DNA of 4,261 bases from a virus (taxonomy: Duplodnaviria > Heunggongvirae > Uroviricota > Caudoviricetes): positions 1 to 4,261 of IMG/VR virus record IMGVR_UViG_2657245448_000003; one strand, 5' to 3'. How positions within the stretch are numbered: the first letter of the stretch is position 1; each line of letters starts with the position of its first letter. Below the pieces are notes generated by a model that saw only the letters and a program-made list of their open reading frames with translations, was not told where the DNA came from and ran no database searches. This document shows positions 1-4,261 of the stretch, one piece after another. A program made the position numbers and the translations under genes.

Positions 1-2
1 GG

Positions 3-77
3 TACATGGATATGATGTGTGAAGCGCGTGGCGCGGCGGATCTTGTTTCCTCATCAGCGAGGGAAAGAGGGCTTTAA
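3..77 (+). CDS. Possible 3' end of an upstream gene entering the window (frame 3; ...YMDMMCEARGAADLVSSSARERGL*), unknown product
   Basis: Frame 3 is open from the window edge to TAA at 75-77, and that stop overlaps the ATG of the next gene (TAATG). Only about 24 codons are visible, so this may equally be a short spurious frame. Confidence 0.2.
   Translation, partial: YMDMMCEARGAADLVSSSARERGL
59..71 (+). promoter_or_regulatory. Shine-Dalgarno-like purine run (GAGGGAAAGAGGG) serving the 77..412 gene
   Basis: AGAGGG at 66-71 lies 5 nt upstream of ATG 77-79. Confidence 0.4.
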
Positions 78-412
78 TGAAACGGTTATGTTTGGCGTTA
101 GTTATGATGGTTACTGCTCCGGCGATGGCTGCAATTCAGTGCGGCAACTACACGATGACCGGTGACGGAATGACTGTTATTAACGGTGAAACTGTCACAT
201 CACAGAAGATAAAATTTCTGGGAAAAGATGGTGACTATTCAAACATGAAAATGGACATGGGCCTGATGCCTTCCCGTGATGGTAACAATTACGGCTTTGA
301 GTTTGTGAAACGTAACGGAAAAGCTTTCCTGAACGTCCAGCTGCTGCAGAACAGCATGGACGCGCCGAAAATCATTGGATCTTTCCCGTGTAAAAAAGTG
401 AGCAGCAAGTGA
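77..412 (+). CDS. Small secreted (periplasmic) protein of unknown function, 111 aa, with a cleavable Sec signal peptide
   Basis: ATG start with a good RBS. The N-terminus MKRLCLALVMMVTAPAMA-AIQ has a basic n-region, a hydrophobic core and an AxA signal peptidase I site. The mature part has Cys22 and Cys105 and is rich in G, N, D and K. The context before C22 (A-I-Q-C) does not resemble a lipobox. The stop overlaps the GTG start of the next ORF (GTGA at 409-412). Confidence 0.7.
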   Translation: MKRLCLALVMMVTAPAMAAIQCGNYTMTGDGMTVINGETVTSQKIKFLGKDGDYSNMKMDMGLMPSRDGNNYGFEFVKRNGKAFLNVQLLQNSMDAPKIIGSFPCKKVSSK

Positions 413-921
413 CAGTTGATGATGATCCTTTGAATTCATTTCAAGACCCTGACTTTCAGGAACTTCTCGGCGGAATTGATATTACTCTTGTTATAAGGTT
501 TTTTAATTATTTTTCGCGTTTCGAATATGCGTTAAAAAGAATTAATTTCAAAAAAACTGATCGTAGAAATTATCTAATCGGTGCTGACTGGAGCCGCTAC
601 GCTACTGATGATACGCGGCCTTTATATCCTACTGGAAATAGAAATGTCGATAGGGCAGTTGAGTATCTATGTCAGCAACCTGTGAAGCAGCAGAGGCATG
701 ATTTTTCGTGGGAGGATAAACCTCCAATCGAACCTCATTCTCTTGCTGAAGCATTAAAGCAGATCCCGTATATAAGAAATAATCTCTTTCACGGCGGGAA
801 GTATTTACGTCCCGCCCCCGTTCGTGATGAAAAGTTATTGAAATACTCTATTTATTTGATGCAGTTGTGTTTGATAACTGATAATCAGCTTTCTGAATAC
901 TTTAATACTATCCACCGATAG
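409..921 (+). CDS. AT-rich accessory ORF, 170 aa, hypothetical protein with a HEPN-like R-x4-H motif (IRNNLFHGGKY, codons at 772-801); candidate RNase toxin or abortive-infection protein
   Basis: It is the only long open frame on either strand across 409-921. The GTG start at 409 overlaps the upstream stop (an alternative in-frame TTG is at 430), and there is no in-frame ATG until near the 3' end. From about 481 the composition turns strongly AT-rich, with many AGA, AGG and ATA codons, unlike the flanking genes. R123-N-N-L-F-H128 fits the HEPN consensus R-x(4-6)-H with a polar residue after the Arg. An intrinsic terminator follows the stop. The functional call is inference from the motif only. 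Confidence 0.5.
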   Translation: MTVDDDPLNSFQDPDFQELLGGIDITLVIRFFNYFSRFEYALKRINFKKTDRRNYLIGADWSRYATDDTRPLYPTGNRNVDRAVEYLCQQPVKQQRHDFSWEDKPPIEPHSLAEALKQIPYIRNNLFHGGKYLRPAPVRDEKLLKYSIYLMQLCLITDNQLSEYFNTIHR

Positions 922-937
922 TCATTCTTCATGAGAT

Positions 938-970
938 AAAACCTGCCACCCGGCGGGTTTTTTGCTTTTT
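938..970 (+). terminator. Rho-independent terminator ending the accessory cassette
   Basis: A-tract 938-941; stem CCTGCC (942-947), loop ACCC (948-951), stem GGCGGG (952-957) giving 6 bp including one G-U pair; then TTTTTTGCTTTTT (958-970). It lies 17 nt after the TAG stop at 919-921. Confidence 0.65.
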
Positions 971-974
971 GGAG
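971..974 (+). promoter_or_regulatory. Shine-Dalgarno (GGAG) for the spike gene
   Basis: GGAG sits 7 nt upstream of ATG 982-984. Confidence 0.4.
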
Positions 975-981
975 CCTACCA

Positions 982-1734
982 ATGGCAGTAACTGACCAGA
1001 CCCGCAGTGGCGATCTTGCCGAAACATTTAAATCTGAACGGGAAACAACAAAGAACCAGATCCGTGTCGCCTTGCCTGGCATTATTCAGTCATTCGATCC
1101 TGACGCGGTGACGGCGGTTGTGCAGCCAGCTATCCGGTCAGTTGAAAAGGATAACGACGGTAACCGCATTACCAAAAATTACCCATTGCTGGTGGATGTG
1201 CCAGTGGTATTCCCGCGCGGCGGAGGCTGTACGTTGACTTTTCCGGTAAAAGCTGGGGATGAGTGTCTTGTCGTTTTTGCCGATCGTTGTATTGATTTCT
1301 GGTGGCAGAGCGGCGGGATACAGGAGACGGTTGATGACAGAATGCATGATTTATCGGATGCGTTTTGTATTGTCGGTCCCCAGTCGCAGGCTAGGAAGAT
1401 TAGCGGTATTAATACCAGTGCCACACAGTTGCGTAGTGACGACGGCAGCACCTATTTTGAGCTTAATCCTGATACCAGGAAAATTAAAATTGTCGCTCCG
1501 GGGGGGCTTGATGTGGTTGCCCCCCTGGCTGATTTTTCTGAGAAAGTAACCATTCATGGCCTGTTAACCTGGATGGGGGGCATGGTGGGGTCTGTGGTTT
1601 CTGGTGTGGCTTCAAAAATCACTGGTGCTGTTGAGTTTTTGGGGAGCGTGAAGGCTAACGGCAAGCCAATCGATGATACGCACACTCATGGTGGTGTTCA
1701 GCGCGGTGGAAGCAGTACCGACGGGGTAAACTGA
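982..1734 (+). CDS. Baseplate central spike / baseplate assembly protein (Gp138-N / P2 gpV / Mu gp45-like), 250 aa
   Basis: The N-terminal region (FDPDAVTAVVQPAIRS...YPLLVDVPVVFPRGGGCTLTFPVKAGDECLVVFADRCIDFWW) matches my recollection of the Gp138 N-terminal spike domain. The C-terminal part is Gly/Val-rich and ends with THTH (1678-1689), resembling the metal-binding HxH apex of phage spikes. Position directly upstream of gp46-like and baseplate J-like genes fits. No homology search was run. Confidence 0.8.
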   Translation: MAVTDQTRSGDLAETFKSERETTKNQIRVALPGIIQSFDPDAVTAVVQPAIRSVEKDNDGNRITKNYPLLVDVPVVFPRGGGCTLTFPVKAGDECLVVFADRCIDFWWQSGGIQETVDDRMHDLSDAFCIVGPQSQARKISGINTSATQLRSDDGSTYFELNPDTRKIKIVAPGGLDVVAPLADFSEKVTIHGLLTWMGGMVGSVVSGVASKITGAVEFLGSVKANGKPIDDTHTHGGVQRGGSSTDGVN

Positions 1735-2087
1735 TGCGATACAGACGTGAAGACGCCGATGGCGATTACACCTTTGGCAGCGGTGATGACACCTGGCTGA
1801 TTAACTCACCGGAGGCCGTGGCGCAGGCGGTAAAAACGCGATTCGAATTGTGGTATGGGCAATGGTTTCTCGACACCACCGAGGGGACTCCGTGGATCCA
1901 GTCCGTACTCGGTAAGCAGAAGCCGGAAACCTACAACCTGGCGATCCGTAAGCGCATCCTCGAAACGCAGGGCGTTAAATCAATCCTCTCTTTCAATACG
2001 ACGCTGGATACCACGACCCGACGTGTCATGTTTTCCGCTGAAATCGACACTCTTTATGGAATAACGACTGTTACATCGGAGGCGTAA
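1734..2087 (+). CDS. Small baseplate protein (Mu gp46-like / gpW-gp25-like), 117 aa
   Basis: The size and the position between spike and baseplate J match Mu gp46 / P2 gpW. The start overlaps the upstream stop (ATGA at 1732-1736). The assignment rests on synteny and size more than on a recognised motif. Confidence 0.65.
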   Translation: MRYRREDADGDYTFGSGDDTWLINSPEAVAQAVKTRFELWYGQWFLDTTEGTPWIQSVLGKQKPETYNLAIRKRILETQGVKSILSFNTTLDTTTRRVMFSAEIDTLYGITTVTSEA

Positions 2088-3286
2088 TGGCTCTGAACCT
2101 TGATTCTCTCGGTTTATCTGCAAAGGTAACCGCGGAGGGGATCAGTGCGCCTGATTATCAGACGATACTCAGCACCCTGATTAGCTATTTTCAGCAGATT
2201 TATGGCAGTGATGCCTACCTCGAACCGGACAGCAAAGACGGCCAGATGGTGGCTCTGATGGCGCTGGCGATTCATGATGCCAATAATACTGCGATAACTG
2301 TCTACAACTGTTTTTCACCGGCAACCGGCTATGGGGCTGCACTGACCTGTAACGTGAAAATAAATGGTATTTCACGTAAAGGCGCGACGAACTCTACGGT
2401 TGATTTGCTTCTTACAGGAACTGCCGGAACAACCATCATTAATGGCAGCGTGAAAGACAGTAATAATGTGATATGGCGTTTGCCTGCTTCAGTGGTGGTA
2501 GGCGTGGATGGTACAGTGATGGTGACCGCAACATGTTCCGTCAGTGGTGCAGTGGCGGCGCTGGCTGGAACTATCACTGAAATTAATACGCCAACCCGTG
2601 GCTGGGTTTCGGTAACCAATCCTGCTGCAGCCACTGTGGGCACTCCGGCAGAAACTGACGCTGAGTTACGTATCCGCCAGTCGCAAAGTGTTGCGTTGCC
2701 ATCAATAACCCCATTTGAAGCACTGGATGGTGCTGTTTCTAATGTTACCGGTGTAACCCGCCACAAACTCTATGAAAACGATACTGGTTCGGAGGACGGT
2801 AACGGGTTACCGCCACACTCTGTTGCTGTAATTGTGGATGGCGGTGATGTAACGGATATTGCTCAGGCTATCAGAGGGAATAAAGGCCAGGGGACAGCCA
2901 CTCACGGTACAACATCCGTTACGGTTCCGGATAAATACGGCAATCCCCATGTAATCAAATTCTCGCGTTCCAGTGATGTGCCTGTTTATGCCCTGATTAA
3001 ATTAAAAGTTTTTACGGGTTATACCTCACAGATAGGGCAGCAGATCCAGCAGGCTATTTCCGACTATATCAATAGTCTGATGATTGGTGATTCGGTCCTT
3101 TTAAGTCGCATTTACTCACCGGCGAATCTTGGCGTGGTGAGTGGCGGGAATGCACGCTATTACGATATTCAGGAACTGACGATTGGGAAATCCCCGGGGG
3201 CTTTGTCGTCATCAAACATTGATATCAGATACAACGAATCTGCGTCCTGTACCCCGAAAAATATCGTTATAACGGTGGAGTCATGA
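2087..3286 (+). CDS. Baseplate J-like protein (P2 gpJ / Mu gp47 family), 399 aa
   Basis: A 399-aa protein immediately after the gpW-like gene, with the start overlapping the upstream stop (TAATG at 2085-2089) and GGAGG just upstream. Length and composition are consistent with baseplate J wedge proteins. This is a synteny-based call. Confidence 0.8.
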   Translation: MALNLDSLGLSAKVTAEGISAPDYQTILSTLISYFQQIYGSDAYLEPDSKDGQMVALMALAIHDANNTAITVYNCFSPATGYGAALTCNVKINGISRKGATNSTVDLLLTGTAGTTIINGSVKDSNNVIWRLPASVVVGVDGTVMVTATCSVSGAVAALAGTITEINTPTRGWVSVTNPAAATVGTPAETDAELRIRQSQSVALPSITPFEALDGAVSNVTGVTRHKLYENDTGSEDGNGLPPHSVAVIVDGGDVTDIAQAIRGNKGQGTATHGTTSVTVPDKYGNPHVIKFSRSSDVPVYALIKLKVFTGYTSQIGQQIQQAISDYINSLMIGDSVLLSRIYSPANLGVVSGGNARYYDIQELTIGKSPGALSSSNIDIRYNESASCTPKNIVITVES

Positions 3287-3963
3287 GCAAATACACCGAA
3301 CTAATCACGAACTACCACGCCACCAAACCTAAATTTCTTGCGCATGTTGATCTGATGACCCGGCCACTTATTGATGTTGCGGCTGCCACCAGAGGGCTGA
3401 TTAGTGCATTTGATATTGACTCTGCGGTTGGTGTGCAACTTGACATCCTTGGATTGTGGATCGGACGTAGCCGTGTTGTCAGCCAGCCTATCTCAGGTGT
3501 CTATTTCAGCTGGGATACCGACGGGCTTGGATATGATCAGGGGGTATGGCAGGGACCATACGATCCTGATTCAGGATACATGTATCTCAGCGATGAAACT
3601 TATCGTGTCATTCTTAAAGCGAAGATTGCGATTAATAACTGGGACGGACGGAATGATTCGCTTCCGGCAATTCTTGACGCGGCAACAGCAGGATCCGGGC
3701 TGCGAATGCAGATAGTCGATAACCAGGACATGACGATATCGGTCTGGGTCTTTCCTGATACTGATATTTCAGATGTATCGCGTGAGTTAATTGCGGCAAT
3801 TAAACAGGGGTATCTCACAGTAAAAGCCGCCGGGGTATGGGCGGGTGGCATTGAAACACCTTCGGTGGAAACCCCATCGGAAGGCTCAAAATTTTTTGGT
3901 TTTGATATGGATAACGAATTCATCAGTGGTTTTGATGTAGGAGCATGGGGAGTATTACTCTGA
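3283..3963 (+). CDS. Baseplate/tail protein (P2 gpI / Mu gp48-like), 226 aa
   Basis: Follows baseplate J with an ATGA overlap at 3283-3286 and a GGTGGAG RBS upstream. Its place between J and the tail fibre matches gpI/gp48. The stop overlaps the next start (TGATG at 3961-3965). Confidence 0.65.
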   Translation: MSKYTELITNYHATKPKFLAHVDLMTRPLIDVAAATRGLISAFDIDSAVGVQLDILGLWIGRSRVVSQPISGVYFSWDTDGLGYDQGVWQGPYDPDSGYMYLSDETYRVILKAKIAINNWDGRNDSLPAILDAATAGSGLRMQIVDNQDMTISVWVFPDTDISDVSRELIAAIKQGYLTVKAAGVWAGGIETPSVETPSEGSKFFGFDMDNEFISGFDVGAWGVLL

Positions 3964-4261
3964 TGGCGAAAAATGACTTTAAAGCGTTTGCAACGGATCG
4001 AAATGCCAATGTTATATCGCAGGAGGAATGGGAAGCGTTGCCCGCGCTTTTATCTGGATTTACAGCAGGGAAAGCCTCCAGTGCGCAAGTCAATAAGGTT
4101 ATTCGGCAGGCCAGCTTCATTTTTACGGGGGCGAGAACCGATCGGGAAGTTGATGATCATATGCTCGCCGCGCTGGGCTGCATGGCTGTTATCGTCTTCC
4201 AGAGTATCTGGCGCACCAGCAACATACACCACCGGTTCATCGTGCACGACAGGCGCATCTT
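3963..4261 (+). CDS. Tail fibre protein, conserved N-terminal region (MAKNDFKAFATDRNANVISQEEWEALPALLSGFTAGKASSAQVNKVIRQASFI); frame stays open to the window end but is probably not genuine tail fibre beyond about 4124
   Basis: The N-terminal approx. 53 codons look like the conserved N-terminus of enterobacterial prophage tail fibres (recalled pattern ...ASSAQVNKxIRQxxFI...). After about 4122 the same frame uses rare codons (AGA, CGG, AGG, ATA) and gives an atypical peptide, while the opposite strand shows good codon usage. Confidence 0.5.
   Translation, partial: MAKNDFKAFATDRNANVISQEEWEALPALLSGFTAGKASSAQVNKVIRQASFIFTGARTDREVDDHMLAALGCMAVIVFQSIWRTSNIHHRFIVHDRRI
4125..4261 (-). CDS. 3' part of a convergent gene of unknown function running off the window edge (...DAPVVHDEPVVYVAGAPDTLEDDNSHAAQRGEHMIINFPIGSRPR)
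   Basis: The minus-strand frame is open from the window edge and uses typical E. coli codons (CTG, CCG, GAA, GGT, GCG). The six-frame track reports it from a GTG at 4247 running to a stop at 4050, but the frame continues open upstream to 4261. Below about 4125 it overlaps the conserved tail-fibre N-terminus and is probably fortuitous read-through. Confidence 0.3.

What the first reader, a model, noticed from the sequence alone, without database searches (positions are those of the whole stretch)
409..921. AT-rich 170-aa ORF with a HEPN-type R-x4-H motif inside a prophage tail module: candidate undescribed toxin or anti-phage gene
This ORF is compositionally foreign to its neighbours (strongly AT-rich from about 481, with AGA/AGG/ATA codons). 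It has no close in-frame ATG and is followed by its own terminator. It contains IRNNLFHGGKY (R123-x4-H128, codons 775-792), which fits the catalytic R-x(4-6)-H signature of HEPN RNases (Abi-type proteins, HepT toxins, Cas13, RnlA/LsoA). Small AT-rich genes carried as morons in prophage late regions are often defence or exclusion genes. I did not recognise the protein as a named family.
Basis: partly seen in the sequence, partly recalled or inferred. Interest (0 to 1): 0.75.

Follow-up and report, generated by a model that had tools for sequence, protein, structure and literature searches.

The report
Standalone HEPN-like prophage cargo gene
The ORF is a real, horizontally acquired cargo gene in a swappable slot of an E. 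coli prophage baseplate operon; it most likely encodes a small self-contained HEPN-type RNase used in anti-phage defence, from a large uncharacterised family that a published machine-learning screen flagged as defensive but nobody has tested.

The parts
409..921 (+). Coding sequence of the 170-aa HEPN-like protein (WP_001551481.1); the GTG start overlaps the upstream stop
   Evidence: homologues start at the same residue; AlphaFold pLDDT 91.4
775..792 (+). R123-N124-N125-L126-F127-H128, the putative HEPN catalytic motif; the conserved block continues G129-G130-K131
   Evidence: R, H and G129 are 144/144, N124 143/144, K131 143/144; aligned to Csx1-Crn2 catalytic R401/N402/H406
511..537 (+). 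F35-S-R-F-E39-Y-A-L-K43, a family-specific conserved motif on predicted helix 1
   Evidence: E39 144/144, K43 143/144, R37 133/144; helix 25-44 in the model. A role in the active site is inferred, not shown
400..939 (+). The swappable cargo cassette; similarity to sister prophages with other cargo ends at about 399 and resumes at about 940
   Evidence: alternative cargo DUF4282, DUF2335, DUF4236 and hypothetical + YafO toxin
938..971 (+). Terminator-like hairpin (938-961) plus T-run; a conserved backbone element bounding the slot, followed by GGAG and the spike ATG at 982
   Evidence: conserved in all five phages compared, with a different loop but a preserved stem in strain M-17
77..412 (+). 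Upstream 111-aa gene with a signal-peptide-like N-terminus (phrog_3443); a backbone gene, stop/start overlapped with both the hub gene and the HEPN-like gene
   Evidence: 70% identical in SEN34, which lacks the HEPN-like gene, and 38% identical in Pantoea. It is therefore not a dedicated partner
982..1734 (+). Baseplate spike gene (PF18352 N-terminal domain plus Apex motif); the right-hand flank of the slot
1..77 (+). 3' end of the baseplate hub gene (TAA 75-77 overlaps ATG 77-79); the left-hand backbone

Best explanation
The ORF encodes a minimal, self-contained HEPN-fold ribonuclease carried as exchangeable cargo in the baseplate operon of an E. coli myovirus prophage. Its most likely role is anti-phage defence of the abortive-infection type. 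By analogy with characterised HEPN enzymes, two protomers would pair their R123-N124-x3-H128 motifs into a composite, metal-independent active site. The enzyme would be inactive or tolerated at rest and would be switched on by an infection cue, either a phage protein or a small molecule. It would then cut RNA, most plausibly tRNA anticodon loops or other cellular RNA, and stop phage production. Shown here: a real gene, foreign composition, a swappable slot, invariant R/N/H, a HEPN-like predicted fold, no conserved partner, and mobile or defence contexts. Inferred: dimerisation, RNase activity, substrate, trigger and the defence phenotype.
Confidence: 0.55

Rival explanations
1. It is a HEPN-type RNase that serves the phage's own lytic programme rather than lysogen defence. 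It would be co-expressed with late baseplate genes and would degrade host or competitor RNA during late infection, as host takeover or as exclusion of co-infecting phages and satellites.
For: Stop/start overlaps chain hub, the 111-aa gene and this gene together. No significant independent promoter was found. A second phage carries a homologue inside its tail region.
Against: Most family members are in non-phage chromosomal or plasmid contexts. The gene is dispensable cargo, replaced by unrelated genes in sister prophages. Its AT-rich composition is typical of recently acquired accessory genes.
Confidence: 0.15
2. It is the toxin of a toxin-antitoxin or addiction module whose antitoxin was not recognised (a small RNA, an overlapping small ORF or a distal gene), and it stabilises the prophage or plasmid rather than defending against phage.
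For: HEPN toxins such as HepT are classic toxin-antitoxin toxins (one search hits). The slot holds a YafO toxin in sister prophages. Homologues sit on 5-kb plasmids. One homologue follows XRE + M78 genes.
Against: No conserved adjacent gene in 76 loci, and no nucleotidyltransferase (MNT) among the recurrent neighbours. The upstream gene is backbone, appears secreted, and is present without the HEPN-like gene in SEN34. pF3517-3 already has ccdAB, and nothing lies adjacent to the family gene there. No Rfam RNA was found in the window. The motif is RNNLFHGGKY, which is not the HepT R-X4-H-X-Y.
Confidence: 0.12
3. It is a helical protein with a HEPN-like fold but no nuclease function, for example a ligand- or nucleic-acid-binding regulator or a phage accessory protein.
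Against: Absolute invariance of R, H and G, plus N and K at 143/144, across about 30%-identical homologues points to chemistry rather than packing. The profile alignment to a proven catalytic site is residue-exact. The contexts are defence or mobile rather than regulatory.
Confidence: 0.1

Closest known systems
HepS (Gifsy-1 prophage, Salmonella; Sargen et al., Nature 2026, PMC13043305)
   Different: HepS lies between replication and antirepressor genes of a lambdoid siphovirus, not in a myovirus baseplate operon. Sequence relatedness could not be tested because hepS is absent from the LT2 Gifsy-1 record and no supplements are held. The family profile retrieved no HepS chain from PDB sequences at E<=10. 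The trigger (tail-tip J) and substrate (tRNA anticodon loops) are unknown for this protein.
ApeA (Gao_Ape; Apea-like HEPN, PF18739)
   Same: A one-protein HEPN defence system. It is the best remote hit for this exact protein in DefensePredictor (HHblits 61.6%), the source of the UniRef name, and a sub-threshold Pfam hit for 2 of 144 members. Its active-site residues lie on helix H3.
   Different: ApeA is a roughly 560-aa three-domain protein (N-terminal 1-198, Mid 199-309, then HEPN with insertions). It forms ring oligomers, mostly decamers, and is activated by deoxydinucleotides bound between the N-terminal and HEPN domains. The window protein is 170 aa with no N-terminal or Mid domain, and has no PADLOC or Pfam hit.
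Csx1/Csm6 HEPN domain (type III CRISPR ancillary RNases; Csx1-Crn2, PDB 8Y7F)
   Same: The only natural solved proteins hit by the family profile. RNNLFHGGK aligns with RNSVAHGGR, that is, to catalytic R401/N402/H406, and the following helix also aligns.
   Different: E is only 0.03-0.16. Csx1 has CARF and HTH domains and is activated by cyclic oligoadenylate, whereas this protein has no CARF domain.
HepT/MNT HEPN toxins (DUF86; PDB 7AE2, 8XDJ, 5YEP) and minimal HEPN proteins TTHA0636 and HI0074
   Different: No MNT nucleotidyltransferase neighbour. No R-X4-H-X-Y tyrosine (the sequence is H128-G-G-K-Y132). Extra beta-hairpin inserts between helices 1-2 and 2-3, and a family-specific FSRFE..K motif.
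AbiD/AbiF (Abi_2, PF07751) and other single-gene HEPN Abi proteins (AbiV, AbiU2, AbiJ)
   Same: Single-gene HEPN abortive-infection proteins on mobile elements. Abi_2 is the most frequent sub-threshold Pfam hit (4 of 144). One homologue lies next to an AbiV gene.
   Different: No hit reaches significance (best E 0.027).
DS-28 / ANEX HEPN family nuclease WP_000528930.1 (DefensePredictor, experimentally validated)
   Same: A 163-aa E. coli HEPN protein with an RNSVAH motif and a Csx1-like remote hit; validated as defensive.
   Different: It works as a two-gene unit. hhalign against the family gives a probability of 0.5% and BLASTP finds nothing, so it is unrelated at family level.

Membership tests
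HEPN superfamily | Conserved R-x4-6-H motif, usually with a polar residue (N/D/H) after R | tested here: met
   R123 and H128 are 144/144 and N124 is 143/144 in diverse homologues. The sequences came from an HMM search without a motif filter, but they are the 150 best-scoring hits.
HEPN superfamily | All-alpha four-helix core with the motif on the third core helix | tested here: inconclusive
HEPN superfamily | Significant sequence or profile match to a recognised HEPN family | tested here: inconclusive
   Csx1-Crn2 at E 0.027, with exact alignment of the catalytic residues. Only sub-threshold hits to Abi_2, HEPN_Apea and HEPN_Swt1. HHblits to ApeA at 61.6%. No Pfam hit for the window protein at E<=1.
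HEPN superfamily | Dimerisation into a composite active site and metal-independent RNA cleavage | not testable with these tools
   No multimer prediction or biochemistry was available.
ApeA (Gao_Ape) | Three-domain architecture of roughly 560 aa (N-terminal, Mid, HEPN_ApeA) with a ligand pocket between the N-terminal and HEPN domains | tested here: not met
   The protein is 170 aa with a single domain.
ApeA (Gao_Ape) | Match to the PADLOC or Pfam ApeA models | tested here: not met
   No PADLOC hit at E<=1. No Pfam HEPN_Apea hit for the window protein. Two of 144 members hit below threshold.
HepS family | Sequence homology to STM14_3211 | not tested
   The HepS sequence could not be obtained. 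The family profile retrieved no HepS chain from PDB sequences at E<=10, but whether HepS is in that copy is unknown.
HepS family | Standalone small HEPN protein, prophage-borne, with no partner gene | tested here: met
HepT-MNT type II/VII toxin-antitoxin | Adjacent MNT nucleotidyltransferase antitoxin and an R-X4-H-X-Y motif | tested here: not met
   No nucleotidyltransferase among the recurrent neighbours in 76 loci. The motif is RNNLFHGGKY, with G at H+2.
Abi_2 (AbiD/AbiF) | Pfam PF07751 match above the gathering threshold | tested here: not met
   Best E 0.027 among 144 members, and none for the window protein.
DS-28 (ANEX) HEPN nuclease | Homology to WP_000528930.1 and a paired second gene | tested here: not met
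   hhalign probability 0.5%; BLASTP E 0.78.
Prophage moron / cargo-hotspot gene | Dispensable, compositionally distinct gene in a slot with alternative contents between conserved backbone genes | tested here: met
   The classic moron feature of its own promoter and terminator is not met: the terminator is backbone and no promoter was shown.

The most novel reading that the evidence does not exclude
This protein represents a very large, phylum-spanning and so far unnamed family of minimal HEPN enzymes: about 165 aa, with a family-specific FSRFE..K motif, invariant E39, and beta-hairpin inserts. Each member would be both sensor and effector in one domain. The copy parked in a myovirus baseplate slot would sense a virion or late-stage product of competing phages, as HepS senses tail-tip proteins, while sparing its own phage. 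That would make it a second, independent case of self-sparing prophage HEPN immunity, with a new trigger-recognition module.
Probability: 0.25. Interest if true: 0.65.

Novelty: new member of a known kind. Interest (0 to 1): 0.45.

Why it matters
Single-protein HEPN defences such as HepS and ApeA have only recently been shown to combine infection sensing and tRNA cleavage in one polypeptide. This family is smaller than either. It is very widespread (2,392 clusters at 50% identity, across bacteria and at least one archaeon) and has no curated model in Pfam, NCBIfam or PADLOC, so current annotation and defence-finding tools miss it. A validated function would add a common, minimal RNase effector to defence catalogues. 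It would give a compact system for studying how a bare HEPN domain is kept silent and then triggered. It would also document a cargo hotspot inside the baseplate operon of a common group of enterobacterial prophages.

Tried and rejected
(1) Foldseek against PDB and BFVD found no hit with E<=0.001. The afdb50 library was unavailable.
(2) A homologue search seeded with the Csx1-Crn2 HEPN fragment, meant to build a profile for hhalign, found nothing. That search was wasted.
(3) I tried to retrieve HepS for a direct comparison. It is not in the LT2 Gifsy-1 record, either among annotated CDS or in any ORF with R-N-x3-H at positions 100-105, and no supplements are held.
(4) DS-28 was considered as the same family and rejected.
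(5) The upstream 111-aa gene was considered as an antitoxin or partner and rejected. It is a backbone gene with a signal-peptide-like N-terminus and is present without this gene in SEN34 and in sister prophages.
(6) A conserved operon partner was sought across the family. None was found within two genes either side in 76 loci; the XRE + M78 pairing is confined to a few loci.
(7) 'Own terminator' was rejected.
(8) No structured RNA was found in the window.
(9) No significant excess of promoter-like sites was found.

Full report
OBSERVATION. The window carries a 513-nt ORF at 409-921 on the + strand (170 aa). It starts at a GTG whose last two bases begin the TGA stop of the preceding ORF 77-412. 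That ORF's ATG in turn overlaps the TAA of the baseplate hub gene. RefSeq annotates the same coordinates as WP_001551481.1, 'hypothetical protein'. The ORF has GC 38.4% and GC3 33.9%, and 15 of 171 codons are rare. The five neighbouring genes have GC 45-53% and GC3 44-63%. The peptide IRNNLFHGGKY is present, with R123 at 775-777 and H128 at 790-792. The bare motif is weak evidence, because 64% of shuffles of this protein contain an R-x4-6-H. A terminator-like hairpin lies at 938-961.

WHERE IT SITS. The window is the baseplate module of an E. coli myovirus prophage. It is 100% identical over 1-4121 to many chromosomes and to the induced phages vB_EcoM-606R2 and 611R5. The gene order is hub, 111-aa gene, this ORF, spike, sheath-initiator-like gene, baseplate J, DUF2612. 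The ORF itself is in only 25 of 5,426 complete E. coli genomes, whereas parts of its first 1,300 bases match 408 genomes. Sister prophages keep the flanks but carry other cargo: a DUF4282, DUF2335 or DUF4236 protein, or a hypothetical protein plus a YafO-family toxin. Salmonella phage SEN34 and Klebsiella phage GZ7 also differ at this position. DNA alignments place the junctions at about 399/400 and about 940. The hairpin, T-run, GGAG and spike ATG are conserved in every variant, with a changed loop but an intact stem in strain M-17. The terminator is therefore part of the backbone and not the gene's own. The upstream 111-aa gene is also backbone: it is 70% identical in SEN34, which lacks the ORF.

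THE PROTEIN AND ITS FAMILY. There is no hit in Pfam, NCBIfam or PADLOC, only an uncharacterised PHROG, phrog_19013. A word-indexed search found 27 homologues. An exhaustive HMM search found 2,392 representatives at 50% identity (606 at E<=1e-30), almost all 155-185 aa. A genome scan found at least 415 loci across Proteobacteria, Bacteroidota, Planctomycetota, Verrucomicrobiota, Chloroflexota, Acidobacteriota, Nitrospirota and one methanogen. In 144 diverse members, E39, R123, H128 and G129 are invariant, and N124, K43, K131 and R139 are each 143/144. There are two conserved blocks, F-S-R-F-E-x-x-L-K on helix 1 and R-N-N-L-F-H-G-G-K.

CONTEXT OF HOMOLOGUES. I called ORFs in 76 loci and scanned the two nearest genes on each side in bulk. 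No partner is conserved. The most frequent neighbours are integrases (5), type I R-M specificity subunits (4) with N6_Mtase methylases (4), Abi_C (2), HEPN (2), PIN (2) and AbiEii-type AAA_21 (2), plus single SIR2 and TIR proteins. Many neighbours are ordinary genes. In L081 the gene lies in the order hsdM, hsdS, X, two further genes, hsdR, with its start overlapping the hsdS stop. Other examples follow XRE + M78 peptidase genes, sit next to AbiV, TIR, Mrr and type ISP R-M genes, or follow a 1,257-aa STAND NTPase. The gene is solitary cargo on the 4.9-kb plasmid pF3517-3. It lies inside the tail region of Klebsiella phage ST101-KPC2phi6.1. Rare fusions carry an N-terminal DUF6884, a YaaA-like nucleic-acid-binding domain.

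LITERATURE. DefensePredictor (Science 2026) lists WP_001551481.1 in Table S10 with mean log-odds 9.44 (cut-off 4), as a 'Predicted novel defense gene', one of 1,041 untested clusters. It is absent from the tables of cloned and tested units, and the overall validation rate was 45%. HepS (Nature 2026) is a standalone prophage HEPN protein with R100/N101/H105 and no partner. It is inactive as a tetramer, is activated by siphovirus tail-tip proteins, and cleaves tRNA anticodon loops. ApeA is a three-domain HEPN tRNase of roughly 560 aa that is activated by deoxydinucleotides. The validated DS-28 HEPN nuclease is unrelated.

MECHANISM. The most likely mechanism (confidence 0.55) is a self-contained HEPN RNase that dimerises to form a composite R/N/H site, stays silent until an infection cue, and then cleaves cellular RNA to abort infection. 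Everything beyond the fold and the context is inference. The rivals are a late-expressed phage-serving RNase (0.15), an unrecognised toxin-antitoxin toxin (0.12) and a non-catalytic HEPN-like protein (0.10).

VERDICT. There are two corrections: the terminator is backbone, and the bare motif is not significant by itself. There is also one qualification: the protein has already been flagged computationally, though never tested. It is a new family-level member of a known kind, the standalone HEPN defence nucleases. Interest is moderate.

Noticed in passing
window 4119-4261: The last ~143 bases are not prophage. They match xdhD (molybdopterin oxidoreductase) in 5,177 of 5,426 E. coli genomes, while identity to the prophage stops at 4121, inside the tail-fibre gene that starts at 3963. 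In complete genomes the prophage lies next to yfhH/tadA/mltF/purL, not xdhD. The window end is therefore a rearrangement, an assembly chimera or an artificial splice.
   Followed up: partly
window 77-412: This conserved 111-aa backbone gene has a signal-peptide-like N-terminus (MKRLCLALVMMVTAPAMA), belongs to phrog_3443 (unknown function), and some UniRef entries call it 'Secreted protein'. It is present in E. coli, Salmonella (SEN34) and Pantoea prophages between the hub gene and the cargo slot. A secreted protein encoded inside a baseplate operon is unexplained.
   Followed up: partly
window 938-971: A strongly conserved intrinsic-terminator-like hairpin sits in the middle of the baseplate operon, directly upstream of the spike gene's ribosome-binding site, in all related phages examined. 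It marks the right edge of the cargo slot and may act as the recombination anchor, or may require antitermination for late gene expression.
   Followed up: partly
protein collection, cluster of window:409-918: The 170-aa protein is filed in a 90%-identity cluster of 353 members whose representative, and most listed members, are the 110-111-aa product of the upstream gene. This looks like a clustering artefact. It explains why the first homologue search returned no self-hit.
   Followed up: no
L013:5980-6501: A contig labelled Chryseobacterium sp. 18061 carries a 53%-identical homologue in the same hub, 111-aa gene, X, spike, baseplate J arrangement typical of enterobacterial prophages. This could be contamination or mislabelling of that assembly, or a wide host range for this phage type.
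   Followed up: no
L081:1493-9871: The family gene is embedded in a type I R-M operon (hsdM, hsdS, X, GMT-wHTH protein, DUF5131, hsdR) in an Anaerolineales MAG. This recalls how the anticodon nuclease PrrC sits inside a type I R-M locus (that comparison is from my own knowledge). The two other inserted genes may also be defence cargo.
   Followed up: partly
P0047 and P0055 (representative proteins): These are fusions of an N-terminal DUF6884 domain (YaaA-like, proposed to bind DNA lesions or DNA-RNA hybrids) to the HEPN-like domain. Four further fusions of 290-343 aa have N-terminal regions without a significant Pfam match. They may be sensor-effector variants of the family.
   Followed up: partly
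L001:17322-18456 (downstream of the window in complete genomes): In complete genomes, the end of the prophage tail-fibre region has oppositely oriented tail-fibre-assembly and gp53-like genes next to a truncated recombinase pseudogene. This looks like a decayed invertible host-range (shufflon-like) segment.
   Followed up: no
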